Assembly (NCBI GenBank): GCA_030950905.1
Contig: JAUZQQ010000027.1
Coordinates: 9,306 to 73,305 of the forward strand
Source of the DNA: Mariprofundaceae bacterium
GTDB taxonomy: Bacteria > Pseudomonadota > Zetaproteobacteria > Mariprofundales > Mariprofundaceae
DNA length: 64,000 nt
Direction of reading: 5' to 3'
Position numbers and translations under genes: made by a program. Positions within the stretch are counted from its first letter, which is position 1. Each line of letters begins with the position of its first letter. Of the stretch, positions 17,815 through 52,646 are shown in pieces. The notes beneath the pieces are model-generated. The model saw only the letters and a list, made by a program, of their open reading frames with translations. It ran no database searches and was not told the origin of the DNA.

Positions 17815-17819
17815 GAATA

Positions 17820-18930: not shown

Positions 18931-19275
18931 TTACAATCCGTATTTGGCCTTGTTGCTTGCGACAGCTTCAGCAGAAGGAACGTCCTGCTCTTTAACCTCT
19001 GCCAATGCATAAGCATCACGCTTGCTATCACATTGTTCATTCAGCGCAATATCACCTTCAAAAACATCAGGGACATCTTCCTCTGGGTAAATTGCTTCCC
19101 ACGGGCATTCTGGTTCGCATACCGCACAATCAATGCACTCATCAGGAGAAATAAGCAACATATTGGGGCTTGATTCACTGATTTCTGTGGGTTGATAAAA
19201 ACAATCCACGGGGCAAACGGCCACACACGCAGTATCGACACAATCTTTACACAATTGGGTGACAACAAAAGCCAT
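18931..19275 (-). CDS. Ferredoxin, FdxA-like (7Fe/2x[4Fe-4S] type)
   Basis: [25 protein letters not shown] plus a second cluster motif [12 protein letters not shown]. Confidence 0.85.
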
Positions 19276-19400
19276 AAGTTTTACCTCAACTTATTCAATA
19301 CAAATTCCAAAATCGGCGCACAAGCTAAAGAGCCTGCGAAAGAATAGCAAACCAAGCCCACACACCAGCACTCATGGTATAAAAAAACACCTGTAAAAAA

Positions 19401-19898: not shown

Positions 19899-19916
19899 CG
19901 ACAGCTCCTTATTCTA

Positions 19917-22103: not shown

Positions 22104-22187
22104 GGACTATTTATTTTCCTCATTATTTATTCTTTCCAGAGATTACAGTGCTAGGGAAGGTAAGCCCACTTCGTCGAAAATCAAGTG

Positions 22188-23330
22188 CTATCCTATCTTA
22201 AACGAAAAGCCCACCCTACGCTGTAACCACTGAAACCACCCTTGTTCTACCAGTGTCGGCATGCGATCGTGCGTGGCGCGATAAAATAACCAAAACCCCA
22301 GCAGTAAAAAAACCGCTTGCCCCAGCCACATGACCCACCATGCAGCATCGCCGTGGGTCACTTGTTGATGCAAGGCCAATTGCACATTGTAGAGCAACAC
22401 CATCAACGCAATCCCCAAGATATAAGCGCTGGATTTGGATGCCCGTTTGACCGTATGGGACAAGGGCAGACAAAACAAAAACAATACCAGCAACGTTGTT
22501 GGCATCAACAAACGACGGTGCCATTCGGCCACAATATCAGGGCGGGCATTGCCCTCTTGTATTGCTGCCAACAATTCTGTGCCTTGCATTTCAAAAGAAC
22601 GCGCTTGCCACGTTGGTATTTTAAGCAAACCCAAAGCACCAAGATCCATGCCTATTTGATAGCGTTCAAAAGAAATAGAGCGCAATTTTTTGCCATCGCC
22701 TTCTAATCGAACGCCATCAAACAAAGTAAACCGCAATACATCGCCAATACGCTCCAAGGTTGCAGATTTGGCCATATACACCACCGAAACCGATGAACGG
22801 CGGTCTTCTAGCATAAAACCCTTGAAGCGACCATCAGCATCTTGGCCTTGCACATAAACGGTAAAATTTTCTAAATCTTGATTAAAACGAAGCGGTTCAA
22901 AACCTGGTGCTGGCTTCATTTTTTGAATAGCCATCAACAGACCTTGAAATAACTTTTGCCCTTGCGGCATCCATTGCATGGCGGTGACTTCCAGCAACAT
23001 AGCCAGCACCACGGCAAGCAACAACAACGAGCGAAACAAGCGCAAAAACGATATGCCTGCCGCACGAAAAGCATCCATCTCGCTGGTCTCGTACAAACGC
23101 AGCACCACATGCTGCATGGCGAAGAAAAAAGCCATCGGTACGGTGATCAATAAAAAATAAGGAAGAATCGCAAACAGCATAGAGACCATCAGTCCCCACT
23201 CAATGCCTTTGTCGGCAAACAGGGCGAGTAATTTTAATACCCGCCCCAGCAAAAGCATACCTACCACCACGATCAACGCACCAACAAAAGGCATAAACCA
23301 TAGCCGAAGAATATAACGATCCAGCACCAT
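22188..23330 (-). CDS. LptF/LptG family (YjgP/YjgQ) LPS export permease
   Basis: N-terminus MVLDRYILRLWFMPFVGAL is typical of the family. Six TM segments flank a periplasmic beta-jellyroll-sized insert. Confidence 0.75.
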   Translation of the reverse strand: MVLDRYILRLWFMPFVGALIVVVGMLLLGRVLKLLALFADKGIEWGLMVSMLFAILPYFLLITVPMAFFFAMQHVVLRLYETSEMDAFRAAGISFLRLFRSLLLLAVVLAMLLEVTAMQWMPQGQKLFQGLLMAIQKMKPAPGFEPLRFNQDLENFTVYVQGQDADGRFKGFMLEDRRSSVSVVYMAKSATLERIGDVLRFTLFDGVRLEGDGKKLRSISFERYQIGMDLGALGLLKIPTWQARSFEMQGTELLAAIQEGNARPDIVAEWHRRLLMPTTLLVLFLFCLPLSHTVKRASKSSAYILGIALMVLLYNVQLALHQQVTHGDAAWWVMWLGQAVFLLLGFWLFYRATHDRMPTLVEQGWFQWLQRRVGFSFKIG

Positions 23331-23363
23331 ATTTTTGCCTGCTTGCTTACTTAATGTAGACCT

Positions 23364-24788
23364 TTACAGCAACGCCTTCAAACGTGTATTGACCACCGAA
23401 GGGTTCGCTTGACCACGGGTTGCTTTCATCACTTGCCCGACAAAAAAACCAAATAATTTATCCCGCCCACCACGGTATTGTTCCACCTGTTTAGGGTTTG
23501 CCTCAATGATCTCTTTGATCAGGGCATCAATAGCCCCAGTGTCTGAGACTTGCTTCAAACCTTTTTCTTCGATGATTTGATCGGCAGATTGCCCTGTTTT
23601 TATCATGGTGTCCAAGACATCTTTGGCAATTTTTCCAGAAATTGTACCGTCGTCGATACGATCCAACAGTACAGCCAAGGTTTTTGCATCAATGGGTGCG
23701 TTGCTGATGTTTTGCCCTTGTTCATTCAAACGGCCAAGCAATTCATTGGCCATCCAGTTGGCACAACGCTTGGGGTCTTTAGGGTGCGCTGCGACGAGTT
23801 GTTCGTACCAAGTGGCAAGATCACGGGTTTGTGTTAATACATCGGCATCGTAGGCGGACAAGCCATATTCCTCTTCAAAGCGTTGCCGCAATTGTGGGGG
23901 TAATTCAGGCATGCCAGCACGAATAAGTGCCACTTCTTCGGCAGAGATCCGAAGCGGTGGTAGATCGGGTTCTGGAAAATAACGGTAATCATGCGCTTCT
24001 TCTTTGCTGCGCATGGAACGAGTTTCGCCTTTGACAGAATCGTACAAACGGGTTTCTTGCACCACCGTGCCGCCATCTTCGATTAATTCAATTTGACGAA
24101 TCACCTCGTATTCGATGCCTTGTTTGATAAAGCGAAATGAATTTAAATTTTTTAATTCAGCGCGTGTTCCCAAAGGTGCGCCAAACTGACGAACCGAAAC
24201 ATTGGCATCGCAACGAAATTGACCTTTTTCCATATTGCCACCTGAAACATCCAAAAAACGAATCAATTGATGCAATTGTTTCAAATAGGCGATGGCCTCA
24301 TCGGCACTGCGCATATCAGGCTCGGAGACAACCTCCATCAACGGCACACCTGAACGGTTTAAATCAATATGCGAAACAGCATCTAAACCTTCGTGCATGG
24401 ATTTCCCTGCATCCTCTTCCATATGAATACGGGTGATGCCGATGCGTTTTTTCCCATCGTTGCTGGCAATGTCCAAGTAACCACCGTCCACTAACGGCAC
24501 GGAAAATTGAGTGATTTGATAACCTTTTGGTAAATCAGGGTAAAAATAGTTCTTGCGATCAAAACGTGATTCTAAATTAATGGTGGCGTTGATGGCCAGA
24601 CCTGTAAGAATCGTTTTATCAACAGCAATATGATTTAATACGGGCAACTGCCCTGGCATACCAAGGCAAACGGGGCAGGTTTGACTGTTTGGTTCTGCGC
24701 CAAAAGCGGTGGAACATCCACAAAACGCCTTGGTTTTGCTGTTGATCTGCACATGGACTTCAAGGCCAATGACAACTTCCCAACTCAT
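23364..24788 (-). CDS. gatB: Asp/Glu-tRNA amidotransferase subunit B
   Basis: True start [14 protein letters not shown] at ATG 24788, which forms an ATGA overlap with the gatA stop. The track's 37-codon N-terminal extension to 24899 lies inside gatA and is rejected. Confidence 0.93.
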
Positions 24789-26583: not shown

Positions 26584-27984
26584 TCAATCGCCTCTACAAA
26601 GCGTATCAACCAATTGCTTCACGCTTGGAACAAAACCATTGGTATACAAAGGATCATCTGCAAAACGGTAGGCAGTATGGCCTGCAAACATCAAATTACG
26701 GTCGAGTATACCGTCATGGGCAATGTCTTGTAAGGTTTTCTGAATACAAAAACTGCGGGGGTCAGCTTTACGCCCCGTTGTTCCTCGGTCATTTGCCGCC
26801 CAGTTAGAAAATTTACATTGGGACAAACACCCCATGCAATTTAACTGATCTTGTCGGATCTCTTGTGCTTTTTCTTCGCTGGCAAAAATTAATGTGGAAT
26901 CAGGCGTGGGCAAAGCTTTGCTAAAACCATCGTTGATCCATTCTTCGGCGCGTTTGGCATCCTGATGGGTAACAAAAACGATTTTGTCGCGAACCCCAAA
27001 AGTAAATGCTTCAACATGATCACCAGCAGGGTGATCAACAAAAGCGATTTCACGATCCGATCTAGCATACAACTCATGAAGAAAAGAATTGTATACAGCA
27101 GAAGAATAAAAACCCGTTGGTGAAAAACGATTCAACTGAATATCACCCTCTTTTAATTGCAGCAAGCGCGCCTTCCATGCATCGGAAATAGGGCTTTCTT
27201 GGGTCATTAATGGCCGCGTGCCTAATTGGAAAACAATCAAGCCAATCTCTGGATTGTCTAGCCAATCGGTCCATTCACGCAAGCACCATACCCCACCAGC
27301 CATTACAATCGGAGTTTCTTGCAGACCAAATTCATTCATGGTTTTGCGCAATAACGCAACACGTTGGTACGGTGACTCTGGTTTTTTAGGATCTTCTGAG
27401 TTGGAAAGACCATTGTGGCCACCAGCAAGCCATGGGTCTTCATAAACCACCCCCCCCAGCCATTCGGGGGCTTTGCGATAAGAGCGCAGCCATAAGGCGC
27501 GAAATGCACGCGCAGAAGAAATAATAGGGTAATAATACACCCGGTGTTTTGCCGCCAATGGTGCAAGACGAAAGGGCATACCAGCACCACAAGTCACACC
27601 GTCAATAAGATGAGAGGCTTGCTCCAATACGCCGTTTAGTACGCGTTCTGCACCACCCATTTCCCACAACACATTCATGTGCAAGCGACCACGCCCAGCA
27701 GCAATTTCGTGGGCAACACGCGCCTGACGAACACCACCAGCAATAGCCTGTGTTACCAACTCTTCAAACCGCTCTTTGCGACTCCGACCATGGTATACGG
27801 TGCGCACAATATTGCCTGATTCATCAAGCTGATCGGCATTAACCGCAGAAAATGTGCCAATGCTGCCAGCAGCAGCCCATGCGCCAGCACTTTCCCCCGT
27901 AGAAATAGCCACACCTTTTCCGCCTTCAACAAGCGGTAATACTTCTTTGCCTGAAAGCATCATTGGAGAAATATGAAATGACAT
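26584..27984 (-). CDS. FMN-dependent nitronate monooxygenase / FabK-like flavoprotein (long 466-aa form)
   Basis: TIM-barrel NMO/FabK-like pattern (VEGGKGVAIS, GVTCGAGMPF, IVMAGGVW) with a Cys-containing C-terminal extension (CMGCLSQC). The family call is by eye only. Confidence 0.5.
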   Translation of the reverse strand: MSFHISPMMLSGKEVLPLVEGGKGVAISTGESAGAWAAAGSIGTFSAVNADQLDESGNIVRTVYHGRSRKERFEELVTQAIAGGVRQARVAHEIAAGRGRLHMNVLWEMGGAERVLNGVLEQASHLIDGVTCGAGMPFRLAPLAAKHRVYYYPIISSARAFRALWLRSYRKAPEWLGGVVYEDPWLAGGHNGLSNSEDPKKPESPYQRVALLRKTMNEFGLQETPIVMAGGVWCLREWTDWLDNPEIGLIVFQLGTRPLMTQESPISDAWKARLLQLKEGDIQLNRFSPTGFYSSAVYNSFLHELYARSDREIAFVDHPAGDHVEAFTFGVRDKIVFVTHQDAKRAEEWINDGFSKALPTPDSTLIFASEEKAQEIRQDQLNCMGCLSQCKFSNWAANDRGTTGRKADPRSFCIQKTLQDIAHDGILDRNLMFAGHTAYRFADDPLYTNGFVPSVKQLVDTLCRGD

Positions 27985-35513: not shown

Positions 35514-36791
35514 ATGTCAATGGAAAAATCCAAGGCTATTGTTTTGGCAGCCGTCCAATCAGGTGATTTTCTTTTGGCATCGCAAACATGTATCGCTTTG
35601 GCAAAAGAAACCAAACATGATGCTGAATTATGGGAAATGGCAGCGCAACTTTGCAATCAGGCAGGGCAGCCCAAAGCAGCCGCAACATGTTATGCTTACA
35701 GTGCTCGCGTGTTTATGGCACAAAAAAAACCAGCCCAAGCAATCAGCATGATGAAGCATTATGCTGCGCTTAGCTATCAAGACCCACAACAAGCTTGTCG
35801 CCACTTGTTTTTTGCCTGTCGTGCTGGCGGGCTTGATTGCAATATTTGCAGCATTCGTGAGGTTTCACAAGATGTTTGTTGCATGTTGTTTCGAAACGAT
35901 GATTTTTGGCGTAATATCCCTGATCAAGCTGTAGCCACCTTGTTAAAAGGGTCAAGTGTTCATCGTTATGCTGATGGCGCGTATATTGCCAAAGAGGGAA
36001 GCAAAAGCACTTCGATATACCTTGTTTCTCACGGCAGCATTCAATTGCAATTAAACGCTGTTAATGGCGGTCAAAAATCACTTTCCACCATTCATACAGG
36101 CAGTGTATGTGGTGAGATTTCTTATTACCTTCAATGGCCTGAGCGCGTTTATTCTATCATTGCAGGTGATGATTGCGAAGTGGTAGAAATTCCTTATCAG
36201 ACATTGCATAAACTTTGTCAGCAATACCCTGTTATAAAAAAATGGATGGATCATCATTTTGAAAAAGATATATTGGAACATATACTGGCCAATATACCTT
36301 TTTTTGAAAAGCTAGAAACATTAAAGCTGTATGATATTTCCCAACAAATGCAGCCAAAGGTGTTTGCCGCAGGAGACGTTGTTTTTCAACAGGACGACAT
36401 TCACGACTTGGATCTTTTTTTGATTCAAACAGGTTGGATTAACTTAAATTATGAATGGCATAACAAAACCTACCATCTATGCACGCTAAAGCCAGGTGAT
36501 GTTTTTGGTGCTGTGGCTATGATTGAATCAAAACGAAAAGTTACAGCGCGGTCTATTGCAGCGTGCAAGCTTATGTGTTGGTCTGAGTCGGACTTTAAAG
36601 CTGCCTACGCACAGTGTTTTCAGCTTCGGGACAATGTTGCCGAAAGCATGGCGCGTTACCAACATGCATTGGATGAAATTCGCCAATATGATCCCAAATC
36701 AAATGCACCACAGCCTGAAATTGATCGCGTGGTGTTATTGGATGCTATGTATTGCCGTAACAATATTGCTCAGGCCTACTTCAATACCTGA
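35514..36791 (+). CDS. Protein with helical N-terminal region and two cyclic-nucleotide-binding (CAP_ED-like) domains
   Basis: Two beta-barrel cNMP-like segments, each ending in a G-x-x-x-GE/GA...R-x-A pattern (VCGEISYY...RVYSIIA and GDVFGAVAMIESKRKVTARSIA). No enzymatic or DNA-binding output domain recognised. Confidence 0.55.
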   Translation: MSMEKSKAIVLAAVQSGDFLLASQTCIALAKETKHDAELWEMAAQLCNQAGQPKAAATCYAYSARVFMAQKKPAQAISMMKHYAALSYQDPQQACRHLFFACRAGGLDCNICSIREVSQDVCCMLFRNDDFWRNIPDQAVATLLKGSSVHRYADGAYIAKEGSKSTSIYLVSHGSIQLQLNAVNGGQKSLSTIHTGSVCGEISYYLQWPERVYSIIAGDDCEVVEIPYQTLHKLCQQYPVIKKWMDHHFEKDILEHILANIPFFEKLETLKLYDISQQMQPKVFAAGDVVFQQDDIHDLDLFLIQTGWINLNYEWHNKTYHLCTLKPGDVFGAVAMIESKRKVTARSIAACKLMCWSESDFKAAYAQCFQLRDNVAESMARYQHALDEIRQYDPKSNAPQPEIDRVVLLDAMYCRNNIAQAYFNT

Positions 36792-42327: not shown

Positions 42328-43329
42328 TTACTGTCCCAGTGCATTTGCCTTGTTGGGTGGTACTTTTGGTTTAACCCTAGCAAGTCCATTCTCCAATATT
42401 AGTTGGATGACTTTATCATAGGCCAATCCATGCTCAATTTTACATGCTTTAGGAAAATAACTGGAATTAAATATCATGCCAGGAACCAAATTAGCCTCAA
42501 TAAAAAAACAATCTCCTGTTTTGTTGGCTTTAACATCTATCCTGCCAAAATCCCTCACACCCAAAGCCAAGAAAGAATCAATAGCAAGCTTTCTCACTTT
42601 ATTTTTCATTTCATCATGCTCAATTGATTTCAGCTCTTCCGAATCATCTTTTTTTACCTTTCGCCCTAAAATTCTAAGTCCATTTTTTGATTTCGGTGGG
42701 ACTATTTCGATAGGGGAAACTATTAATTCATTGCTTGAGGTATTTATTATAGCGACTGTAAATTCTTGTCCATCTAAATATTCTTCTACCAATACAGGGC
42801 TATTAAATGTGTTGTATAACGATAATACTTTACTTTCAAAGTCTGTATAATTTGTTACAAAAGACAAGTCATCAATTCCATTTCCGTTTGCTGCATTTAT
42901 AGGTTTCAAAAATAGAGGGAATTTAATCGGCAGTTCATTTGCACATTTATATTGCCTTGGAACTGCCATAAAATATTCCGCAGTTTTAATGCCTTTGTTT
43001 GCTAAATTTAATTTAGCACTAATTTTATTGGAATCGAACCTCAAAACATTCCTTGATGAACCTGTGAAATTTATTCCATGATGTGAAAAATATTCACTCA
43101 ACCAAATGTCATCTTCATTGTGAAGTGAAATATATTTTACAGCTAATACAAGCAAGCTTGGATTCCTTTTCACAATATTCCCTAAATCTTCTTTGGTTCT
43201 ACATATGCTTAACCTTACATCATAACCCATCCTTTCGATTGAATAAAATACGCTATTGCAAGCTTTTAGAGTTCCAAATCCTGTTTCGTTTAACGCCTCA
43301 TTTGGTGTTGTTACGATTTCAATTTTCAA
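42328..43329 (-). CDS. D-alanine--D-alanine ligase-like ATP-grasp enzyme (AT-rich, probably acquired)
   Basis: ATP-grasp C-terminal pattern FPLFLKPINAANGNGID, VLVEEYLDGQEFTVAI and FGRIDVKANKTGDCFFIEANLVPGM. Hand counts on several 60-nt lines give roughly 27-40% G+C, against about 45-60% in the flanking genes. Confidence 0.6.
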   Translation of the reverse strand: MKIEIVTTPNEALNETGFGTLKACNSVFYSIERMGYDVRLSICRTKEDLGNIVKRNPSLLVLAVKYISLHNEDDIWLSEYFSHHGINFTGSSRNVLRFDSNKISAKLNLANKGIKTAEYFMAVPRQYKCANELPIKFPLFLKPINAANGNGIDDLSFVTNYTDFESKVLSLYNTFNSPVLVEEYLDGQEFTVAIINTSSNELIVSPIEIVPPKSKNGLRILGRKVKKDDSEELKSIEHDEMKNKVRKLAIDSFLALGVRDFGRIDVKANKTGDCFFIEANLVPGMIFNSSYFPKACKIEHGLAYDKVIQLILENGLARVKPKVPPNKANALGQ

Positions 43330-43528
43330 TACGTATTCCCTTCCTAATTCTCTAAAAGTACTTGGTAGTTTTGATGCAACTAACGTCGCAATATAGCGTA
43401 CAGCAGCGTGTATAAATACGCAAGAAAATAAAAGTGTGTATCACACAGTTCATATATTTCTTGTTGTATTTTTTTCGAGCCATATCATAGCCATTTTTGG
43501 TGCTGGCTGTTGTATGATTTAATAGCCC

Positions 43529-46500
43529 ATGCGCCGATTTCCATATCAACCAAAGGTAAAGAAAAAGTACGTGCCCTCGCCCTCCTCCACCATGCAAGAA
43601 GAAAAAAAATACAAGTCTCGAGAAACCCCTATTGCCATCATTGGTATGGATGGTTTGTTTCCTGATTCACCGACGCTGGATGATTTTTGGCGCAATATTA
43701 CCAGCAAGCATACTGCCTCCCGAAGGCCTCCTGCCAACCGTTGGTTGCTTGATGCCGATACTGTTTATCACCCAGAAAGGGGGCGTGCTGATCGCGTCTA
43801 TTCCAAACAGGCATGCTTTCTTGATGATGCATGGTTGGCGCATGATCCATGTAAAAACAGTGCGATGGCTACAGCAGCGCTTGATCCCATGTTTCATTTG
43901 TTGCTTCGTGTTGGCAGGGGAGCGTGGCAAGATGCGGCCGTGGATAGTGCATCTGCTGCACGCACGGGGATTATTATGGGCAACTTGGCTTTGCCTAGCG
44001 AACAATCGTCTGCGTTGGCGCGCCGTTTTATTGACCGTACCTTAGAAGAAAAAATTCTAGCGCAGCACGCCAATCACGCACCCATGGCTTTGGATGCAAA
44101 CAATGCCCATGTTGCAGGTTTACCCGCTGCTGTCTTGGCCAAGGCATTGGGGCTTGGGGGCACGTGTTTTACACTGGATGCCGCCTGTGCCTCGTCGTTG
44201 TACGCCATTAAACTGGCGATGGATGAATTGCGCGCCCATCGTGCTGATGTGATGCTGGCAGGCGGTTTGTCGCGACCTGATTCGCTGTACACGCAAATGG
44301 GCTTTTCCCAACTGCAAGCTTTATCCGCTACGGGTGTGCCTGCGCCATTTGATGCCGCTGGAGACGGTTTGGTGGTCGGTGAAGGCTGTGGTGTTTTTGT
44401 GCTTAAACGTTTAAGCGATGCCGAGGCGGATGCTAATACCATTTATGGCGTGATTCATGCCGTAGGCGTAAGCAATGATCTAACAGGCGGCTTGCTTGCA
44501 CCAGAATCAGAAGGGCAATTGCGCGCCATGCGGTCTGCTTACCAACAAGCGGGCTGGTCACCTTCGGATGTTCAAATGATCGAATGTCATGCACCGGGTA
44601 CACCCGTGGGTGATGTGGTGGAATTTGAAAGCATGGCACGCCTGTGGCAAGATTGTAATTGGCAAGCAGGACAATGCGTTATTGGTTCAGTCAAATCAAA
44701 TATCGGTCACTTGCTCACCGCCGCAGGTTCAGCCGCCTTAATGAAAACATTGCTGGCCATGAAGCACGGCAAGCTTCCGCCCACCGCAAACTTTCACCAA
44801 GCTGCTGAGGGTATTACCCTAAAAGATAGCCCTTTTCAGGTATTGCAAGAAACACAAACGTGGGTAGCAACGGGTACGCCCCGCCGTGCAGCTATCAGTG
44901 CCTTTGGCTTTGGTGGGATTAATGCCCATTTATTGCTCGAATCATATGCCCCCAATAGCAGAAAAAAGATAATATATACTCAAAAAAAGGCAGAACCCAT
45001 TGCCATCATTGGCATGGCTGCACACGTCGGCGCATGGGACTCATTGGCGCGCGTGCAACAACAATTGTTTAGCAGCGAAACAGTAGAGCCGCAACCATTA
45101 ACCCATTGGTGGGGGGCTGAGAAGAGCCAATGGTTGGCTGCTTTGGGTATTCAAGTTGAGCGTGTTGTTGGTTATTGTATCGACGAAATTAGCGCGCCCC
45201 TTGGTGCTTACTGCATCCCGCCGCATGAAATGGCTGAGATGTTACCCCGTCAATTATTAATGCTCAACCTTGCGGCCGCTGCCTTGCTTCATGCTGGTGA
45301 TGATGATTCAAGCAATACAGGTGTATTTATCGGTACAGGGCTGGATATGCAGGCGAGCAATTTCAGTGCGCGTTGGGATGTTGCAAATAAAGTGGATGAA
45401 TGGCTTAAAATATTGGACATTGATCTTGATGAGGATGGCAAAGAAGCATGGACCACCAGTATTCGTGATGCCATTAGCCCGCCATTAAATGCAGGACGAA
45501 CCATGGGTGCATTGGGCAGCACAGTGGCCAGCCGTATTGCCAAAGCCTTTCGCACGGGGGGGGCTGCATTCACCGTCTCAGCGGAAGATCAATCAGGTTT
45601 GCGTGCGTTGGAAGTTGGGATTCATGCCTTGCAATGTGGTGATGTTTATCGCGCGTTGGTCGGGGCTGTGGACATGACCACCGATATGCGTTTATTTTTA
45701 AGTCGCCACGCACGGATGCAGACAAAAGAGTCCTTACCGCCCTTGGCGGATGGTGGTGGTGCATTAATTTTAAAGCGCGTTGACGATGCGCAGCGCGATG
45801 GTGATTGCATTTATGCCATCATTGATGGTTTTGGCACGGGCTTTGATGTATCTACATCCCTAAAGCAAGCCGTACACGACAGCCTAAAAAACACGCCCGA
45901 TCAGGCTTACAAAACCCCACAACGCCTTGGTGATGCAGGTGCAGCCAATGGCATACTTGCGACCATTCATGCGACATTATCGTTGCACCATCGTTTGCGA
46001 GCCGAAGTACCAAGCAAGGCATGGCTCAATAATCAGGCGGAAGGCAAACGCCAAATACTTGTTTCTGGCCACGGTATGGATGGCAGTTATGCCCATATTT
46101 TACTGCAAGAAAACAAAACTTCTTTGCCCAGCACCGCGCCAGCGATTATGCCCAAAGCTGGGTTGTTTGTTGTTTCTGGCACTGCCCCGAATGCGCTCAT
46201 ACAACAGCTCGAACAACTGGCGATACGCATCAAGCAATATGAAGGCAGCATTCATGATGTTGCTTGCCAAGCGTACCAGCATTTTTCACCAGGGTCATTA
46301 TGCTTAAGCATGGTTGCCGATGATGTTACCATGCTCTTGCAACACATTGCCTACGCCAAAGAATCGTTGCAGACAAACCCCACGGCATCTCTTGGTGGGC
46401 ATGGCAGCATCCCCATGCCCCAAAAGCATTTAAAAGATCGCGTTTTTTATAGCCACAAGCCACTCGCCAATAGAGGCAAGGTGGCTTTTATCTTTTCAGG

Positions 46501-49500
46501 TTCGGGCAATCATTACCCCCATATGGGAAAAGATTTATTGGCGCACTGGCCTCATAGTGTTGCAAGCCAAGAGCAAAAGAGCGATTGGCTCAAAGCGCAG
46601 TATTTACCCGATGCCGTATGGCAAAATAACATCCAACCCCTATACCAAGATCATAATGCGTTGGTGATTTCTCACGTTGCCTTGGGTACAGCCATCAGCG
46701 ATATACTGCGCGGTTTTGCTCTGCATCCATCAGCGGCAATGGGTTATAGTCTTGGCGAGTCGACCAGTTTATTTTCGCTGGGGGCGTGGTCAGACCGTGA
46801 TGCCATGGTACAAAGACTGAAAGCTTCACCCTTATTCACCGAAGAATTGGCAGGTGTGTGCCGAGCTGCGCGCAAGCAATGGCAATTGAATGAAAGCGAA
46901 ACCGTTGATTGGGTGATCGGCATGGTCAACGTGGCTGCAAGCCGTGTGAATGAAGAACTGCCAGCATTCCCAAGGGCTTATTTGCTGATCACCAACACTG
47001 CCACAGAATGTGTAATTGGTGGTCAACGCACGATGGTAATGGCTTTGGTGGGTGCACTTAACGCCCACTTTCACCCCTTGGATGGGGTCACTACCGTACA
47101 CTGTGACGTGGTCACGCCTGTGGCCGATGCCTACCATGCTTTGCATTTGTTTGACACAAAAACCCCTAAAGGCATTGATTTTTACAGCTTTGCCAGCGGT
47201 GAAAAATACACGGTTAATCGAGAAAATACAGCCAATGCGATGCTTGCGCAGGCCATGCACAGCGTGGACTTTCCTCGGCTTATTGAACAAGCCTATGGCG
47301 ACGGTGTTCGCATGTTTTTTGAGATTGGTGCAGGGCAATCCTGTTCACGTATGATTCACAGTATTTTAGGCGAACGCCCCCACCTTGCACGTTCTTCTTG
47401 CTTTGCTGGCGAATCAGCCAGTGGCCTTGTGCTGCGCACGTTGGCACAGGCTATAGCTGAGGGTCTTGATGTTGATCTTTCAAATTTATACCCTACGCCA
47501 ATAAACCAAGATCACGGGCGCACGGTAGCAGCAAGCAAGGCAGGTCTTGCCTTTTCTATAAGCTTGCCCAAGCGCAAAACAGGTATTCTCAAGACGATGC
47601 AGCCAACCCCCCAAAAGAATACGCCGCCAAGCCATACCATGGCCACAGCGTCAGAAACAAACGATTGGACATTGCCTATCCGCACGGTATTGGCAGCCAA
47701 GGCCGAAGCGCACGGGCAGTATTTGCAGTTTTCTACGGTCATGCAACATGCCATGCAACGCAGTCTTACCCTTGCCGCATCCATGCCTAAACCCACGGAT
47801 CCGCAACCACCATTACCCATGGTAAGCACGCCACCAAACTTTTTAAATCGTGCGCAATGTTTGGCTTTTGCGGTGGGTAATATTGGCGATGTGCTCGGTG
47901 AATCATTTGCTGCCATTGATCAACACCCAACACGGGTACGGCTGCCCGATGAACCCCTCATGTTGGTGGATCGCATTGTACATATCGAAGGTACGCCGCG
48001 CAGCATGCGCCATGGTCGTGTGGTAACGGAACACGATGTAAACGCCGACCGTTGGTACCTTGATGCGGGACATATCCCGACTTGCATTGCCGTGGAAGCA
48101 GGTCAAGCTGATTTGTTTTTATCGGCGTATTTGGGCATTGACTTTATCACCAAGGGCAAGGCCGTGTACCGCTTGCTTGATGCGGTCGTTACCTTTCACG
48201 ACAGCTTGCCTGTGGTGGGTGATGTCATTCATTATGACATTTATATTGATGAGTTTTTCTGCCAAGGTGATACTTGGCTATTCCGCTTTCATTTTGAAAG
48301 CACCGTGAATGGTCAAGCTTTGATGTCTATGCAAAAAGGATGTGCGGGGTTTTTCACCCAAGAAGAACTCGCTGGAGGTCAAGGCATTGTTCACACCGCT
48401 TTGGATATGCTGCCACAACAAGGTACGCTGCCGCCAAATTGGCAAGCACCACTGCCGATGCAGCAAGAACAATGGGATGATGGACACATTGCCGCTTTGT
48501 ATGCTGGTGATTTAACGGCATGTTTTGGCGCACCATTTAATAACCTGAACTTCACCCCCTACACACTTCCCCCTCAACCCCATTTGCGTTTGGTGGATCG
48601 TGTCATTTCGCTTGACCCTTCAGGTGGTCGTTACGGTATTGGGCAGATATGCGCCGAAATGGATATTCATCCCGATGATTGGTTTTTAACCTGCCACTTT
48701 GTTGACGATCAGGTGATGCCCGGCACGCTGATGTATGAATGTTGCATGCACACCTTGCGTATTTTCTTGTTGCGCATGGGTTGGGTGGGCAAAGAAGGAG
48801 AAACTTGGTGCGAACCTTTGGTGGCTATTGATAGCGGCCTTAAATGCCGTGGTCAGGTACTTGCCAGCACCAAGTTGGTGACCTACCAAGTAGACATCAA
48901 AACATTGGGTTATGAGCCAGCGCCTTTTGCTATCGTCAATGCACTGATGTTTGCAGATGGTAAACCCATTGTAGAAATCACCAATATGTCGGCATGCCTT
49001 CGTGGTTTAACACAAGAGAGCGTAGAAGCACTGTGGCAAGCACAAATAACGCAACAAATTCCAGTCCGCAGCGTATTGTACAATACCGAAAGAATCACTG
49101 CCTTTGCGATAGGCAAACCCTCTGAGGCCTTTGGTTCACGGTATACTGTTTTTGATGAACAACGAAAAATTGCCCGTTTGCCAGGGCCGCCGTTTCAGTT
49201 TTTGGATCGCATCATGGATGTCCAAGGTGAACCGTGGGTGATGCAAGCAGGTGCAAGCGTGGAAGTAGAATACACCATTCCCAGCGACGCTTGGTATTTT
49301 GAGAGCAACCGTCAAAAAAACATTCCTTTTAGTGTATTGCTGGAGATTGGTTTACAACCTTGCGGCTGGCTCGCGGCGTACATTGGTTCGGCATTAAGCT
49401 CAAGCATTGATTTATCGTTCCGCAACCTTGATGGCAATGCTGTTCAACACCGTGCAATCACGGCAAGCTCTGGCATATTAACCACCCACGTAAGCATCAC

Positions 49501-50149
49501 CAATGTTTCAAGCAGCGGTGGCATGGTGATTCAAAATTATGATTTTGAAACCCGTGATGCCCATGGTGTTGTATACACAGGAAATACAGTGTTTGGCTTT
49601 TTCTCCAAAGCCTCATTGTCGCAGCAAGTCGGTGTGCGCGGTGCTAGCCTCTACCAAGCAACAGTGCCAGAAACAGAAAGAGGGCAAAGTTTTGCCTACC
49701 CTACGCACTTCCCTTACCCCGCCCGTAAAATGCAAATGATTGATACCGTTGATCTATTTGTTCCCGACGGTGGAACCCATGGCTTGGGGTTTATTCGGGG
49801 AACAAAAAGAGTGGATCCTAATGAATGGTTTTTTAAGGCGCATTTTTACCAAGACCCTGTCTGCCCTGGTTCGCTGGGTTTGGAATCATTCTTGCAACTG
49901 CTTAAAATCGCGGCACTTCAGCGTTGGGGTGAATACAATAATGGAGAAATGCAATGCATTGTACTGGGGAAAAACCACAAATGGAACTACCGTGGGCAAA
50001 TTATTCCCAGCAACCAACAAGTAAGCGTTGAAGCCATGATTACAGCAGTGGATGAATCGGCACGAATGCTTACTGCCGATGGGTATTTATCGGTGGATGG
50101 AAAAACAATTTATCAGATGTTTGATTTTACCATCAAGTTGGGTGGATAA
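43529..50149 (+). CDS. PfaC/Pfa3-like multidomain PUFA-synthase-type protein: KS - CLF - AT - (pseudoDH-DH FabA-like) x2
   Basis: KS (about 43625-44945): DAACASS with Cys220 (44186-44188), ECHAPGTPVGD and KSNIGH. CLF (about 44994-46112): the aligned site reads FTVSAEDQSG, with Asp687 (45587-45589) in place of Cys. AT (about 46479-47400): GYSLGES with Ser1074 (46748-46750). FabA-like DH sites: LTCHFVDDQVMPGTL (His1723, 48695-48697) and FKAHFYQDPVCPGSLGLE (His2105, 49841-49843). No DSL/ACP, KR or ER motifs. The start is uncertain (ATG 43529 or ATG 43592, MQEEKK). Confidence 0.85.
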   Translation: MRRFPYQPKVKKKYVPSPSSTMQEEKKYKSRETPIAIIGMDGLFPDSPTLDDFWRNITSKHTASRRPPANRWLLDADTVYHPERGRADRVYSKQACFLDDAWLAHDPCKNSAMATAALDPMFHLLLRVGRGAWQDAAVDSASAARTGIIMGNLALPSEQSSALARRFIDRTLEEKILAQHANHAPMALDANNAHVAGLPAAVLAKALGLGGTCFTLDAACASSLYAIKLAMDELRAHRADVMLAGGLSRPDSLYTQMGFSQLQALSATGVPAPFDAAGDGLVVGEGCGVFVLKRLSDAEADANTIYGVIHAVGVSNDLTGGLLAPESEGQLRAMRSAYQQAGWSPSDVQMIECHAPGTPVGDVVEFESMARLWQDCNWQAGQCVIGSVKSNIGHLLTAAGSAALMKTLLAMKHGKLPPTANFHQAAEGITLKDSPFQVLQETQTWVATGTPRRAAISAFGFGGINAHLLLESYAPNSRKKIIYTQKKAEPIAIIGMAAHVGAWDSLARVQQQLFSSETVEPQPLTHWWGAEKSQWLAALGIQVERVVGYCIDEISAPLGAYCIPPHEMAEMLPRQLLMLNLAAAALLHAGDDDSSNTGVFIGTGLDMQASNFSARWDVANKVDEWLKILDIDLDEDGKEAWTTSIRDAISPPLNAGRTMGALGSTVASRIAKAFRTGGAAFTVSAEDQSGLRALEVGIHALQCGDVYRALVGAVDMTTDMRLFLSRHARMQTKESLPPLADGGGALILKRVDDAQRDGDCIYAIIDGFGTGFDVSTSLKQAVHDSLKNTPDQAYKTPQRLGDAGAANGILATIHATLSLHHRLRAEVPSKAWLNNQAEGKRQILVSGHGMDGSYAHILLQENKTSLPSTAPAIMPKAGLFVVSGTAPNALIQQLEQLAIRIKQYEGSIHDVACQAYQHFSPGSLCLSMVADDVTMLLQHIAYAKESLQTNPTASLGGHGSIPMPQKHLKDRVFYSHKPLANRGKVAFIFSGSGNHYPHMGKDLLAHWPHSVASQEQKSDWLKAQYLPDAVWQNNIQPLYQDHNALVISHVALGTAISDILRGFALHPSAAMGYSLGESTSLFSLGAWSDRDAMVQRLKASPLFTEELAGVCRAARKQWQLNESETVDWVIGMVNVAASRVNEELPAFPRAYLLITNTATECVIGGQRTMVMALVGALNAHFHPLDGVTTVHCDVVTPVADAYHALHLFDTKTPKGIDFYSFASGEKYTVNRENTANAMLAQAMHSVDFPRLIEQAYGDGVRMFFEIGAGQSCSRMIHSILGERPHLARSSCFAGESASGLVLRTLAQAIAEGLDVDLSNLYPTPINQDHGRTVAASKAGLAFSISLPKRKTGILKTMQPTPQKNTPPSHTMATASETNDWTLPIRTVLAAKAEAHGQYLQFSTVMQHAMQRSLTLAASMPKPTDPQPPLPMVSTPPNFLNRAQCLAFAVGNIGDVLGESFAAIDQHPTRVRLPDEPLMLVDRIVHIEGTPRSMRHGRVVTEHDVNADRWYLDAGHIPTCIAVEAGQADLFLSAYLGIDFITKGKAVYRLLDAVVTFHDSLPVVGDVIHYDIYIDEFFCQGDTWLFRFHFESTVNGQALMSMQKGCAGFFTQEELAGGQGIVHTALDMLPQQGTLPPNWQAPLPMQQEQWDDGHIAALYAGDLTACFGAPFNNLNFTPYTLPPQPHLRLVDRVISLDPSGGRYGIGQICAEMDIHPDDWFLTCHFVDDQVMPGTLMYECCMHTLRIFLLRMGWVGKEGETWCEPLVAIDSGLKCRGQVLASTKLVTYQVDIKTLGYEPAPFAIVNALMFADGKPIVEITNMSACLRGLTQESVEALWQAQITQQIPVRSVLYNTERITAFAIGKPSEAFGSRYTVFDEQRKIARLPGPPFQFLDRIMDVQGEPWVMQAGASVEVEYTIPSDAWYFESNRQKNIPFSVLLEIGLQPCGWLAAYIGSALSSSIDLSFRNLDGNAVQHRAITASSGILTTHVSITNVSSSGGMVIQNYDFETRDAHGVVYTGNTVFGFFSKASLSQQVGVRGASLYQATVPETERGQSFAYPTHFPYPARKMQMIDTVDLFVPDGGTHGLGFIRGTKRVDPNEWFFKAHFYQDPVCPGSLGLESFLQLLKIAALQRWGEYNNGEMQCIVLGKNHKWNYRGQIIPSNQQVSVEAMITAVDESARMLTADGYLSVDGKTIYQMFDFTIKLGG

Positions 50150-50158
50150 AAATAACCT

Positions 50159-51226
50159 ATGAATACACGTTCTATTATTCCCGAAGTTGCAGTTCCACGC
50201 GCTACGTTGCAAAAAATGCAAGACTTTGCAGCGTTAATGCTTGGGCTAAAAAAACAAGCTGCGTACCAACAATGGATTGCCAAAAGTGTTCCTGCCTCAG
50301 CCATGTTGGGCAATGATGATGCCCCCATATTAATGGGCTTTGATTTTCACCTTAGCCCTGATGGTCCTAAATTGATTGAAATCAACAACAATGCAGGTGG
50401 TTTGTTTACAGGCATCAATGGTTGGCTACCGCAGCCCGCGATTGATGGCTGTTTAACCGAGCGTTTGCTGCAAATGTTTCCAGAACATTGGCAGAGCATT
50501 GCTATTGTTGATGCCGATATTGAACAGCAATTCATGTTCCCCGAAATGCTCGCGTATGCGGGCATGCTGCGCGAGGCTGGCCGCGATGTCTTTGTGTGCA
50601 GTCCCGAAGCTATTGTGCGCCGTAATGATGGCTTGTATGTAGAGAATCAACGACTCGATGCTATTTACAACCGTCATACCGATTTTTATTTGCAAACGCC
50701 TGCGATGGCACATATTTGCGACGCTTTACAACACCAACACATTGCACTGAACCCATTCCCCCGTAGTTATGCGTTATTGGGCGATAAAAACCGCATGGCG
50801 GATTGGTGGCAAGCGGATGTCTTGGAGCAATGGTTTTCTGCCGAGTCATGCGCCATTGTTCGGAATATTGTTCCGCAAGTGCAACGCCTGCAAGATGTTG
50901 ATGCTGATACGGCTTGGTCGCAGCGCAAGCGTTGGGTATTTAAACCGCCCGACAGCCATGCGGGCAAAGGCGTGGTGCTTGGTAAGGCCATGTCGCGCAA
51001 ACGCTTTGCCTCACTTGACCGTTGCACCACGCTGATGCAGGAATATATTCCTGCCAGTGAAATCACCAGCGAGCATGGTGAGACTTTTCGTTTTGATGTG
51101 CGTCTGTATATGCACGGTGCAACAAGCATCGCATGGGCAGGACGCGCATGGCGCGGGCAATTAACCAATTTTAGAGAGCAAGGAAGTGGCTGGACAAGTA
51201 TTCAAGCGGTGGACGATCGTTGTTGA
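50159..51226 (+). CDS. ATP-grasp-fold protein of the circularly permuted / glutathionylspermidine-synthase-like type (tentative)
   Basis: FDFHLSPDGPKLIEINNNAGG near the N-terminus, LDAIYNRHTDFYL, ALNPFPRSYALLGDKNRMA and RWVFKPPDSHAGKGVVLG. The order of these blocks matches permuted ATP-grasp ligases. Starts 9 nt after the Pfa-like stop. Confidence 0.45.
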   Translation: MNTRSIIPEVAVPRATLQKMQDFAALMLGLKKQAAYQQWIAKSVPASAMLGNDDAPILMGFDFHLSPDGPKLIEINNNAGGLFTGINGWLPQPAIDGCLTERLLQMFPEHWQSIAIVDADIEQQFMFPEMLAYAGMLREAGRDVFVCSPEAIVRRNDGLYVENQRLDAIYNRHTDFYLQTPAMAHICDALQHQHIALNPFPRSYALLGDKNRMADWWQADVLEQWFSAESCAIVRNIVPQVQRLQDVDADTAWSQRKRWVFKPPDSHAGKGVVLGKAMSRKRFASLDRCTTLMQEYIPASEITSEHGETFRFDVRLYMHGATSIAWAGRAWRGQLTNFREQGSGWTSIQAVDDRC

Positions 51227-51900
51227 GCGTTGCCATCATCGTTCCTGTTTACAACGAGGAAAAAACCCTTGGCACGTTTTTGCCCCTCTTGGAAAAATTC
51301 GCTTGTGATCAATTGATCATCGTTGATGGTGGCTCGCAAGATGCTAGTCAAGCACGACTGAAAAAACAGGGGATAACTTGGGTACAAGGACGAAAAGGAC
51401 GCGCCAAACAAATGAATGATGGTGCGGCTGGGTGTACTAGCGATGTGCTGTTATTTCTTCATGTGGACACGCAACTTCCGCCACGGGCGATTGAATTCAT
51501 TCAAATTGCCATGCAAGACAGGACTACCGTCGGGGGTCGTTTTGATGTACGCCTTGATGGCAAAGAACCCGTATTCCGATTGATTGAAACACTGATTAAC
51601 TGGCGGTCGCGGTTGAGTCGAATTAGCACGGGGGATCAGGCCATGTTTGTACGCAGGCATGTGTTTGAGCGCGTGGGTGGTTTTGCCGAGCAAGCACTCA
51701 TGGAAGACATTGCGCTTTCCCGTTGTTTAAAACGGCATGGAAAGATTGCCTGTCTACGCCACACCGTCACCACCTCAGCCCGCCGCTGGCAATACCATGG
51801 TGTGATGCGCACGGTGCTGTTGATGTGGCGTTTGCGTTTTTTGTATTGGTGCGGCGTAAACAGCAACACTTTAGCCGCGATGTACCACGATGCGCGATGA
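51220..51900 (+). CDS. Family-2 glycosyltransferase-like transferase (type usually paired with DUF2064)
   Basis: VAIIVPVYNEEKTL, IIVDGGSQD, FLHVDTQLP and GDQAMFVRR. TTG start overlaps the upstream stop by 7 nt. Confidence 0.7.
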   Translation: MLSVAIIVPVYNEEKTLGTFLPLLEKFACDQLIIVDGGSQDASQARLKKQGITWVQGRKGRAKQMNDGAAGCTSDVLLFLHVDTQLPPRAIEFIQIAMQDRTTVGGRFDVRLDGKEPVFRLIETLINWRSRLSRISTGDQAMFVRRHVFERVGGFAEQALMEDIALSRCLKRHGKIACLRHTVTTSARRWQYHGVMRTVLLMWRLRFLYWCGVNSNTLAAMYHDAR

Positions 51901-52492
51901 TTGTCAGTGCATTATCATGGCCAAAGCCCCCGTTCTGGGTCATGTAAAAACCCGTTTAACGCCCTGTTATTCCCATACTGAAGCGTTGGTATGGCACAAA
52001 AAGATGTGCTGTGCCGTTATTGCGCAGGTCAAAGCCTTGTTTAAGCACACTGTATTGGCCACCGATGATGTTGGCCATGCCTTTTGGCAAAATTTTGACT
52101 TAACGTTGATGGATCAAGGCACAGGAGATTTGGGGCAACGCCTCACCCATGTGGTACGGCAACAGAGCATAGCAGCTTGGCGACCGCTTCTATTCATTGG
52201 CACAGACTCACCACACATGCCAGCCACACGTTTGCTCGCCGCCGCCGATGCACTACAAGATCATGATGTGGTTATTGGGCCTGTTGAAGACGGTGGTTAT
52301 AATTTAATCGGCATGGCCATGCCGATTTCAGGTTTATTTTTGCACACCGACTGGGGAACCTCAAATGTTTGTGCGCAAACAATAAAACGTGCCGAAGCGT
52401 GCAGTATTGCCATGCTGGATATGCACTATGATATTGATACCCCTGAAGATTTACAGCGTCTTTTGAAGTCCGCTAACCCTATTATTAAATAG
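51890..52492 (+). CDS. DUF2064 family (nucleotidyl/glycosyl-transferase-like) protein
   Basis: IIMAKAPVLGHVKTRL, IGTDSPHM and GPVEDGGYNLIGM are typical of DUF2064. 11-nt overlap with the GT2 gene. Confidence 0.7.
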   Translation: MRDDCQCIIMAKAPVLGHVKTRLTPCYSHTEALVWHKKMCCAVIAQVKALFKHTVLATDDVGHAFWQNFDLTLMDQGTGDLGQRLTHVVRQQSIAAWRPLLFIGTDSPHMPATRLLAAADALQDHDVVIGPVEDGGYNLIGMAMPISGLFLHTDWGTSNVCAQTIKRAEACSIAMLDMHYDIDTPEDLQRLLKSANPIIK

Positions 52493-52646
52493 GTGAGCGC
52501 GCTCTTTTCTTGCCTACACGCAGGGTTGTTCTGTGTGGCTCTTTGTAAATGACAAGTGGGAAAGCCAAGTTAATTCTGCATAATTGCCAGCCAACGTTTT
52601 AAAAACTTCCCCTTATTTTTATAAATACCCTACTAAGGATGTCCCC

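What the first reader, a model, noticed from the sequence alone, without database searches (positions are those of the whole stretch)
43529..52492. Four-gene operon: Pfa-like megasynthase + permuted ATP-grasp + GT2 + DUF2064, a candidate novel lipid or secondary-lipid pathway
Seen: the four genes are co-oriented and translationally coupled. There is a 9-nt gap at 50150-50158, a 7-nt overlap at 51220-51226 and an 11-nt overlap at 51890-51900. A second ATP-grasp gene is divergently transcribed upstream. Established: PUFA/secondary-lipid (pfa-type) clusters normally comprise pfaA (KS-AT-tandem ACPs-KR), pfaB, pfaC, pfaD and a PPTase. I know of no described pfa-type cluster whose partners are ATP-grasp ligases and a GT2/DUF2064 transferase pair. 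Inference: the operon may build a fatty or polyenoyl chain that is then ligated to an amine or amino acid (ATP-grasp) and/or a sugar or nucleotide (GT2/DUF2064), making an undescribed lipo-amino-acid or glycolipid.
Basis: partly seen in the sequence, partly recalled or inferred. Interest (0 to 1): 0.85.

Follow-up and report, generated by a model that had tools for sequence, protein, structure and literature searches.

The report
Lipid-synthase gene inserted beside conserved operon
One large gene from a known polyunsaturated-lipid/hydrocarbon cluster of other bacteria sits directly in front of a three-gene unit of unknown function that nearly all iron-oxidising Zetaproteobacteria carry, so the "four-gene lipid pathway" is most likely two separate modules sharing a transcript.

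Summary
Four co-oriented, tightly packed genes lie at 43529-52492 in a Mariprofundaceae (Zetaproteobacteria) genome. They encode a KS-CLF-AT-DH-DH megasynthase, a glutathione-synthetase-like permuted ATP-grasp ligase, a GT2 (TIGR04283) and a DUF2064 protein (TIGR04282).

The pathway interpretation is weakly supported. The ATP-grasp/GT2/DUF2064 triad is an old unit. GT2 follows the ATP-grasp in 71 of 76 species-representative loci and DUF2064 follows GT2 in 61 of 70. A megasynthase lies upstream in only 1 of 65.

The megasynthase is a "Type I" PfaBC fusion. Its relatives (about 50-59% identity, mostly Desulfuromonadales) sit in pfaD-pfaA-pfaBC-oleABCD-PPTase clusters and never next to the triad (0 of 38 loci). 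Only the window lineage and one sister lineage share the four-gene order.

The megasynthase is not a relic: its catalytic residues are intact and dN/dS is 0.13. It has no ACP, KR or ER, and none is encoded in the window. It most likely works with partners encoded elsewhere. A real functional link to the triad cannot be excluded.

The upstream Ddl-like gene is unrelated AT-rich DNA. Interest is modest. The conserved, uncharacterised triad may be the more interesting object.

The parts
43529..50149 (+). Type I PfaBC-fusion megasynthase (KS-CLF-AT-DH-DH), 2206 aa; no ACP, KR or ER
   Evidence: Pfam and NCBIfam hits. It is 50-59% identical over its full length to Desulfuromonadales-type PfaBC. It forms a clade with L003, L010 and P0123 in 100 of 100 NJ bootstraps. 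dN/dS is 0.13 against L003.
43625..44968 (+). KS domain (residues about 33-480), catalytic Cys/His/His present (DAACASS, CHAPGT, NIGHLL)
45026..46378 (+). CLF (KS-like domain without the active-site Cys; about residues 500-950, boundaries approximate)
   Evidence: Second ketoacyl-synt stretch. KS residues 170-292 align to residues 667-778. SAEDQSG stands in place of DAACASS.
46469..47398 (+). AT domain (residues about 981-1290), GYSLGES serine motif; PfaB-like
   Evidence: TIGR02816 109 bits, below the 144 cutoff; Acyl_transf_1 25 bits, below the 32.7 cutoff; motif seen
47939..50149 (+). Two FabA-type dehydratase/isomerase modules (residues 1471-1826 and 1881-2206), catalytic His in both (CHFVDD..PG; AHFYQDPVCPG)
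   Evidence: FabA 257.8 bits, 3 stretches; internal repeat; motifs
50150..50158 (+). 9-nt spacer between the megasynthase stop and the ATP-grasp start; no room for an intergenic promoter
50159..51226 (+). Glutathione-synthetase/GspS/YgiC-like (permuted) ATP-grasp carboxylate-amine ligase; first gene of the conserved Zetaproteobacterial triad
   Evidence: AF2 model and Foldseek; PDB profile hit to homoglutathione synthetase, E 0.0085; 148 relatives in species genomes, the best 80 all Zetaproteobacteria
51220..51900 (+). GT2 glycosyltransferase, TIGR04283 family (named 'arsenosugar biosynthesis glycosyltransferase' by NCBI by association)
   Evidence: 258.5 bits against cutoff 182; directly downstream of the ATP-grasp in 71 of 76 loci
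51890..52492 (+). DUF2064 / CofC-like nucleotidyl- or glycosyl-transferase, TIGR04282 family
   Evidence: 168.3 bits against cutoff 134; PDB 3cgx at E 2e-12; follows GT2 in 61 of 70 loci
52517..52537 (+). Terminator-like hairpin after the last gene (candidate operon end; weak evidence)
   Evidence: 9-pair stem; overall counts not above shuffles
42328..43329 (-). Divergent Ddl-like ATP-grasp: judged NOT part of the unit
   Evidence: Absent next to the cluster in all 90 related loci, including sister L003. GC 0.335 and GC3 0.266 against 0.46 for the window. Ddl equivalog scores are far below cutoff, 94.6 against 243.

Best explanation
Two independent modules became neighbours through an insertion and are now probably read as one transcript.

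Module 1 is the ATP-grasp/GT2/DUF2064 triad at 50159-52492. It is an ancestral three-gene operon found in nearly all Zetaproteobacteria. By inference, it makes a small soluble conjugate. DUF2064 (CofC-like) would activate a phospho-compound with a nucleotide, the GT2 would transfer it, and the glutathione-synthetase-like ligase would add an amine or amino acid to a carboxylate.

Module 2 is the megasynthase at 43529-50149. [quoted passage not shown] The common ancestor of the window lineage and one sister lineage acquired it horizontally from a Desulfuromonadales-type donor.

Shown: PfaBC is functional. Inferred: because it lacks ACP, KR and ER, it works with a PfaA/PfaD-type partner (or another carrier protein) encoded outside the window to build an unsaturated acyl chain. 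Its product is not the substrate of the triad.
For: Triad without megasynthase:
- M. micogutta, Ghiorsea and other Mariprofundaceae have it.
- Across GTDB species representatives, GT2 follows the ATP-grasp in 71 of 76 loci and DUF2064 follows GT2 in 61 of 70.
- A megasynthase lies upstream in only 1 of 65.
- The ancestral upstream neighbours are divergent rlmN and MTA phosphorylase, in 41-42 of 60 loci. This includes the 67%-identical relative L012.

Megasynthase without triad:
- D. soudanensis and Malonomonas rubra have pfaD-pfaA-pfaBC-oleABCD-PPTase.
- None of 35 metagenomic relatives has the ATP-grasp, GT2 or DUF2064 nearby. Most have oleA directly downstream.
- The closest outgroup, L010, has a pfaA C-terminus (ACP-KR-DH) overlapping its start.
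- This architecture matches published Type I, which has a sporadic, HGT-prone distribution, and partial clusters are known (PMC3098273).

Other points:
- Only two 90%-identity protein clusters in 5.8 billion proteins are more than 60% identical to the megasynthase.
- Tight spacing is not evidence of shared function here. In L003 the same megasynthase overlaps housekeeping lspA by 1 nt.
- All structural neighbours of the ATP-grasp ligate small peptides or acids to amino acids or polyamines, not fatty acids.
Against: The four-gene order is kept between two lineages whose synonymous sites are saturated (dS 1.3-2.3), although both flanks differ. That is what selection for linkage would give. Dependence of the triad on an upstream promoter would give the same result.

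No pfaA, pfaD, PPTase or ole gene lies in the 64-kb window or in the 13.5 kb of L003. None of the 120 best PfaA homologues listed carries a Zetaproteobacteria name, although only about a quarter of proteins carry any name. So the assumed partner is unverified.

The megasynthase is under the same purifying selection as the triad genes (0.13 against 0.115-0.12).
Confidence: 0.55

Rival explanations
1. The megasynthase, with a carrier protein in trans, builds an unsaturated acyl chain. The triad then decorates it: the ATP-grasp forms an amide with an amine or amino acid, and GT2/DUF2064 add a sugar or nucleotide-activated head group. The product would be a new lipo-amino-acid or glycolipid. In this lineage a pre-existing head-group pathway was recruited.
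For: Four-gene order and tight junctions are conserved in two lineages with different flanks. The usual pfaA/ole neighbours are absent. The megasynthase is intact and under purifying selection. No literature describes this combination.
Against: The triad is near-universal in Zetaproteobacteria without any lipid synthase next to it, so its native substrate is not this chain. Relatives of the megasynthase never have these partners. The structural relatives of the ATP-grasp use small hydrophilic carboxylates. There is no ACP, thioesterase or acyl-activating enzyme in the cluster to hand a chain over.
Confidence: 0.15
2. The megasynthase acts without a PfaA. It uses the housekeeping type II FAS carrier protein and reductases, and serves as a FabA/FabB-like source of cis-unsaturated fatty acids. 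It is functionally unrelated to the triad.
For: It carries exactly the KS/CLF, AT and FabA-type dehydratase/isomerase activities but no ACP, KR or ER. No pfaA or pfaD is in the window. A paper found (PMC8174602; title and abstract only seen) reports a secondary lipid synthase suppressing lethal mutations in fatty acid biosynthesis.
Against: No PfaBC-type protein is known to me to work with a free AcpP; this rests on my own knowledge, not on a test. The nearest outgroup still has pfaA fused in an operon. Only a tiny subclade has the gene, so it is not the class's general route to unsaturated fatty acids.
Confidence: 0.15
3. The megasynthase is a functionless leftover of a degraded, horizontally acquired pfa cluster. 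It persists only because the triad's transcription now runs through it.
For: It is an isolated subunit of a multi-subunit system. It has several deletions of 8-44 residues relative to D. soudanensis.
Against: The 6.6-kb reading frame is open in two lineages. All catalytic motifs are intact. dN/dS is 0.09-0.22 in every 300-codon block at saturated dS.
Confidence: 0.04

Closest known systems
[quoted passage not shown]
   Same: Same PfaBC fusion architecture (KS-CLF-AT-DH2). It is 50-55% identical over the full length to Desulfuromonadales proteins. It groups with them in the tree. Catalytic motifs are identical.
   Different: Here pfaA, pfaD, oleABCD and the PPTase are not adjacent and are not in the 64-kb window. 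The gene is in a Zetaproteobacterium. The downstream neighbour is an ATP-grasp/GT2/DUF2064 operon instead of oleA.
TIGR04283 / TIGR04282 transferase pair (NCBI: 'arsenosugar biosynthesis glycosyltransferases'; from my memory of the TIGRFAMs notes, originally 'rSAM/selenodomain-associated transferases 2 and 1')
   Same: Both window proteins score above the curated cutoffs and are adjacent, as the pair usually is.
   Different: No ArsS-type radical SAM or ArsM gene is in the window; the only radical SAM gene is RlmN. In Zetaproteobacteria the pair is instead led by a glutathione-synthetase-like ligase. I found no experimental work on either family.
Eukaryotic-type glutathione/homoglutathione synthetase, glutathionylspermidine synthetase, YgiC/YjfC peptide-spermidine ligases, fungal Cp1B (E-64 pathway)
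   Same: Same permuted ATP-grasp fold over the whole protein (Foldseek E 1e-14 to 1e-11, TMq 0.59-0.68). There is a weak profile match to homoglutathione synthetase. All of these are ATP-dependent carboxylate-amine ligases acting on small molecules (PMC12568646).
   Different: Only 10-15% sequence identity. The protein is shorter (355 aa against 370-600). No Pfam or NCBIfam family is reached. The substrates are unknown.

Membership tests
Pfa-type (Type I) secondary lipid synthase | PfaBC-type subunit with KS-CLF-AT-DH-DH and intact catalytic residues | tested here: met
Pfa-type (Type I) secondary lipid synthase | Sequence clade with known Type I PfaBC proteins | tested here: met
   50-59% full-length identity; NJ tree with 100 of 100 bootstraps
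Pfa-type (Type I) secondary lipid synthase | Adjacent pfaA homologue (KS-AT-tandem ACP-KR) | tested here: not met
   tblastn of D. soudanensis PfaA and the L010 PfaA fragment against the window hits only the megasynthase's own KS/CLF/AT. It is also absent from L003.
Pfa-type (Type I) secondary lipid synthase | Adjacent pfaD enoyl reductase | tested here: not met
   No hit in the window. The NMO-like ORF at 26584-27984 does not match PfaD and reaches no NCBIfam family.
Pfa-type (Type I) secondary lipid synthase | pfaA, pfaD and a PPTase present somewhere in the genome | not testable with these tools
   Only 64 kb of the genome is available. Lookups to extend the contig failed. None of the 120 best PfaA homologues listed carries a Zetaproteobacteria name, and most carry no name.
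TIGR04283 / TIGR04282 'arsenosugar-type' transferase pair | Score above the curated NCBIfam cutoff for both proteins | tested here: met
   258.5 against 182 and 168.3 against 134
TIGR04283 / TIGR04282 'arsenosugar-type' transferase pair | Association with an ArsS-type radical SAM (TIGR04167) and arsenic methylation genes | tested here: not met
   None in the window; the only radical SAM gene is RlmN. In related loci the neighbouring radical SAM gene is also RlmN. Presence elsewhere in the genome is not testable.
Glutathione synthetase / GspS-type permuted ATP-grasp ligases | Shared permuted ATP-grasp topology | tested here: met
   Foldseek whole-length matches at TMq about 0.65, against 0.31-0.35 for a classical ATP-grasp
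Glutathione synthetase / GspS-type permuted ATP-grasp ligases | Significant sequence-family membership (Pfam or NCBIfam model) | tested here: not met
   Only sub-threshold ATPgrasp_ST (19.9 bits) and ATP-grasp_3 (17.7 bits) hits, and no NCBIfam hit. The PDB profile E-value is 0.0085.
Glutathione synthetase / GspS-type permuted ATP-grasp ligases | Substrate-binding residues for gamma-Glu-Cys, glutathione or spermidine | not tested
   At 10-15% identity no reliable residue mapping was attempted.
D-alanine--D-alanine ligase (upstream gene 42328-43329) | Score above the Ddl equivalog or subfamily cutoffs | tested here: not met
   Best score 94.6 bits against cutoff 243. Only the Pfam C-terminal domain passes (77 bits).

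The most novel reading that the evidence does not exclude
In this Mariprofundaceae subclade an orphan PfaBC may have been recruited to an older head-group pathway. Its polyenoyl or unsaturated chain would then be joined to the triad's product. That product may be a 5-substituted ribosyl ('arsenosugar-type') or aminoacylated unit. The result would be an undescribed glyco- or amino-lipid, conceivably an arsenolipid-like compound, made without a canonical PfaA.
Probability: 0.12. Interest if true: 0.8.

Novelty: new variant of a known kind. Interest (0 to 1): 0.35.

Why it matters
If the modules are independent, the result is a cautionary example. Translational coupling and two-lineage synteny can arise from an insertion into an operon, so the 'novel lipid pathway' should be downgraded.

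Two things remain worth attention. First, a PfaBC subunit is kept under strong purifying selection without its usual partners nearby, in iron-oxidising Zetaproteobacteria. That bears on how modular Pfa synthases really are.

Second, the triad is conserved across the class and is uncharacterised: a glutathione-synthetase-like ligase plus the two transferase families that NCBI labels 'arsenosugar biosynthesis'. Ancestrally it sits beside MTA phosphorylase. Working out its product would give the first functional handle on DUF2064/TIGR04282 and TIGR04283.

Tried and rejected
- Looked for ArsS/ArsM, pfaA, pfaD, oleABCD and a PPTase in the window. None was found; the radical SAM gene at 17820-18836 is RlmN.
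- Tested whether the NMO-like ORF at 26584-27984 is a PfaD. It gave no match.
- Tried to extend the contig beyond the window with two end genes. The exact products were not on record.
- Searched PfaA homologues with the L010 fragment, hoping to see a Zetaproteobacterial PfaA. None of the 120 best carries a Zetaproteobacteria name, though many are unnamed, so this is inconclusive. The top hit P0248 turned out to be an unrelated fragmented pfa/ole cluster.
- The metagenome scan with the megasynthase recovered only relatives at 57% identity or less and no new four-gene examples.
I rejected this: P0192 fills its own 7,282-bp contig, the other pair differs in source and length, and L127 shows no pfa, GT2 or DUF2064 genes.
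- Promoter and terminator scans were uninformative, with counts at or below shuffle expectation.
- Literature searches for DUF2064 and for ArsS plus glycosyltransferase returned nothing, and the TIGR04282/TIGR04283 search returned only papers restating NCBI's annotation.
- The first NJ and bootstrap script timed out and was redone.
- Considered the Ddl-like gene as a fifth member and rejected it on absence from relatives and on base composition.
Full report
OBSERVATION. The ATP-grasp starts 9 nt after the megasynthase stop. The GT2 TTG start overlaps the ATP-grasp stop in TTGTTGA. The DUF2064 ATG lies 11 nt inside the GT2 gene. A divergent Ddl-like ATP-grasp gene lies 199 bp upstream. Everything else in the window is housekeeping: L25, Pth, YchF, RNase HII and IspG upstream, SbcD and an SbcC-like gene downstream, and RlmN, FtsH, UvrD and GatAB further away. 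Exact protein matches show that the window is from a Mariprofundaceae (Zetaproteobacteria) MAG contig of 79 kb.

GENE IDENTITIES. The 2206-aa protein is KS-CLF-AT-DH-DH. The catalytic residues are present: KS Cys/His/His, a Cys-less CLF, the AT serine (GYSLGES) and both FabA-type histidines. There is no ACP, KR or ER domain.

ORF2 reaches no curated family. A confident AF2 model (pLDDT 85, pTM 0.87) matches several enzymes over its whole length. These are eukaryotic-type glutathione and homoglutathione synthetases, glutathionylspermidine synthetase, YgiC/YjfC and the fungal ligase Cp1B. A profile search of PDB sequences gives homoglutathione synthetase at E 0.0085. These enzymes are the permuted ATP-grasp ligases that join a small carboxylate to an amino acid or polyamine (PMC12568646).

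ORF3 and ORF4 pass the curated cutoffs of TIGR04283 and TIGR04282. NCBI names this pair 'arsenosugar biosynthesis glycosyltransferases'. I found no experiment behind that name, and the papers that use it only repeat the annotation. No paper in the library mentions DUF2064. The only solved relative is the structural-genomics entry 3cgx.

THE TRIAD IS AN OLD, SELF-CONTAINED UNIT. The ATP-grasp has more than 120 protein clusters at 49% identity or above, and every named one is from Zetaproteobacteria. M. micogutta, Ghiorsea and other Mariprofundaceae carry ATP-grasp-GT2-DUF2064 with no megasynthase.

A profile scan of one genome per GTDB species found 148 relatives, and the best 80 are all Zetaproteobacteria. 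In those loci:
- GT2 follows the ATP-grasp directly in 71 of 76.
- DUF2064 follows GT2 in 61 of 70.
- A megasynthase is upstream in 1 of 65.

The usual upstream neighbours are divergently transcribed rlmN and an MTA phosphorylase, in 41-42 of 60 loci. This includes L012, whose ATP-grasp is 67% identical to the window's. The Ddl-like gene is next to the triad in none of the 90 loci. Its GC is 0.335 and GC3 0.266, against 0.46 for the window. It is unrelated, probably recently acquired DNA.

THE MEGASYNTHASE BELONGS TO A KNOWN CLUSTER TYPE. Apart from one sister protein (74% identity), its best relatives are 50-59% identical over the full length. Where named, they come from Desulfuromonadales. 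In Desulfuromonas soudanensis and Malonomonas rubra the gene order is pfaD, pfaA (KS-AT-ACP-KR), this gene, oleA, oleB, oleC, oleD, PPTase.

Among 35 metagenomic relatives, none has the ATP-grasp, GT2 or DUF2064 within the fetched flanks. Most have oleA directly downstream and pfaA/pfaD upstream.

This is the 'Type I' pfa-like cluster of Shulse & Allen (PMC3098273). That type has a pfaBC fusion, is proposed to feed olefin synthesis, has a sporadic distribution attributed to horizontal transfer, and partial clusters are already on record.

In an NJ tree the window and sister proteins group with L010 and P0123 in 100 of 100 bootstraps, beside the Desulfuromonadales group. L010 has 63% GC and still has a pfaA C-terminus (ACP-KR-DH) overlapping the gene start.

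IS THE MEGASYNTHASE ALIVE? Yes. Against the sister orthologue, dN/dS is 0.13 overall and 0.09-0.22 in each 300-codon block, with dS 1.0-1.8 per block (1.33 overall). The triad genes give 0.115-0.12. GC3 is only slightly above that of housekeeping genes, so the acquisition is not recent.

The protein cannot work alone, and the window holds no ACP, KR, ER, PPTase or ole gene. Whether these lie elsewhere in the genome could not be tested.

WHAT THE JUXTAPOSITION MEANS. The four-gene order occurs only in the window lineage and in one sister lineage, seen in three assemblies (L003, L004, L011). Its flanks differ between the two lineages. In L003 the upstream gene is lspA, overlapping the megasynthase start by 1 nt, and the downstream gene is an integrase. 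That overlap with a housekeeping gene shows that tight junctions in these genomes do not by themselves indicate a shared pathway.

The simplest reading is an insertion of a pfa fragment directly upstream of the triad in a common ancestor. The triad then became dependent on transcription through the megasynthase, because a 9-16 nt spacer has no room for a promoter. That dependence alone would preserve the order. I give this 0.55.

An integrated lipid-decoration pathway is possible (0.15) but has no positive support. A PfaA-independent role with the type II FAS is also possible (0.15). A dead relic is essentially excluded (0.04). The remainder is unassigned.

WHAT THE TRIAD MAY DO (inference only). 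One scheme fits the folds. A CofC-like nucleotidyltransferase activates a phosphorylated compound, a GT2 transfers it, and a glutathione-synthetase-like ligase forms an amide.

The ancestral neighbour, MTA phosphorylase, produces a 5-substituted ribose-1-phosphate. This is formally analogous to the 5-deoxy-5-arsinoyl-ribose of arsenosugars, for which this transferase pair is named. So a 5-deoxy- or 5-methylthio-ribosyl conjugate is a testable guess.

The ATP-grasp family is broad, with 616 clusters at 50% identity scoring E 1e-30 or better. Elsewhere it has other partners. In a Desulfuromonadaceae contig it sits by a Nif11/cupin gene, near lysine-2,3-aminomutase, a GNAT and two Ddl-like ligases.

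NOVELTY AND SCORE. The gene combination is undescribed as far as I could search. But it is a rearranged piece of a known cluster type next to known, uncharacterised families. I class it as a new variant of a known kind and score interest at 0.35. The most novel reading still open is a PfaBC-derived chain joined to the triad's head group. I put that at about 0.12, with interest of about 0.8 if true.

Noticed in passing
window 42328-43329 (-) and intergenic 43330-43528: The Ddl-like ATP-grasp gene has GC 0.335 and GC3 0.266, against 0.46 for the window. It scores far below all Ddl cutoffs and is absent from every related locus. It looks like a recently acquired AT-rich gene of unknown function.
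   Followed up: partly
L012 990-2970 (-); same arrangement in 41-42 of 60 Zetaproteobacteria loci (L011-L090): Ancestrally the triad is divergently adjacent to rlmN and an MTA phosphorylase (TIGR01694, 314 bits against cutoff 275). The phosphorylase makes a 5-substituted ribose-1-phosphate. This is suggestive given that the GT2/DUF2064 pair is named for arsenosugar (5-substituted ribose) synthesis.
   Followed up: partly
L005, L006, L013, L036, L038, L056, L080 and others: In about 9 of 70 loci the ATP-grasp and GT2 are present but DUF2064 is not directly downstream. In L034 it lies about 4 kb away. A few loci (L019, L068, L074) have the ATP-grasp without either partner nearby.
   Followed up: no
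window megasynthase residues about 354-359 (nt about 44588-44605); also L003 and L010: The first KS histidine motif reads CHAPGT in the window, L003 and L010, against CHATGT in the Desulfuromonadales orthologues. This Thr-to-Pro change is specific to that clade.
   Followed up: no
L126 (ENA ERZ19045193 scaffold_169), 4999-23864: A fragmented pfa/ole cluster. pfaD, an ACP-KR-DH protein and a stand-alone DH-DH protein are separated by opposite-strand hypothetical genes and followed by oleA, oleB and oleC. No KS-AT gene is seen in the stretch.
   Followed up: no
L127 (Desulfuromonadaceae, JGI 3300033232), 274-6273: A distant homologue of the ATP-grasp (37% identity) sits at a contig end next to a Nif11/cupin protein. 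Nearby are MgtC, lysine-2,3-aminomutase, a GNAT and two Ddl-like ATP-grasps. This may be a beta-lysine-type small-molecule cluster.
   Followed up: partly
window 26584-27984 (-): A 466-aa protein with only a weak NMO/FabK-like Pfam hit (37.8 bits) and no NCBIfam family. It is not PfaD-like by tblastn.
   Followed up: partly
L003 2918-3415 / 3415-9984: In the sister lineage the megasynthase start overlaps the stop of lspA (lipoprotein signal peptidase) by 1 nt, and a phage-type integrase lies convergent right after DUF2064. The block has therefore moved or its flanks have been rearranged.
   Followed up: partly
window 35514-36791 (+): A 425-aa protein with hits to cyclic-nucleotide-binding (CRP-like) models and, at residues 263-369, to the start of the mycobacterial acetyltransferase Pat model. 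It may be a cNMP-regulated protein acetyltransferase.
   Followed up: no
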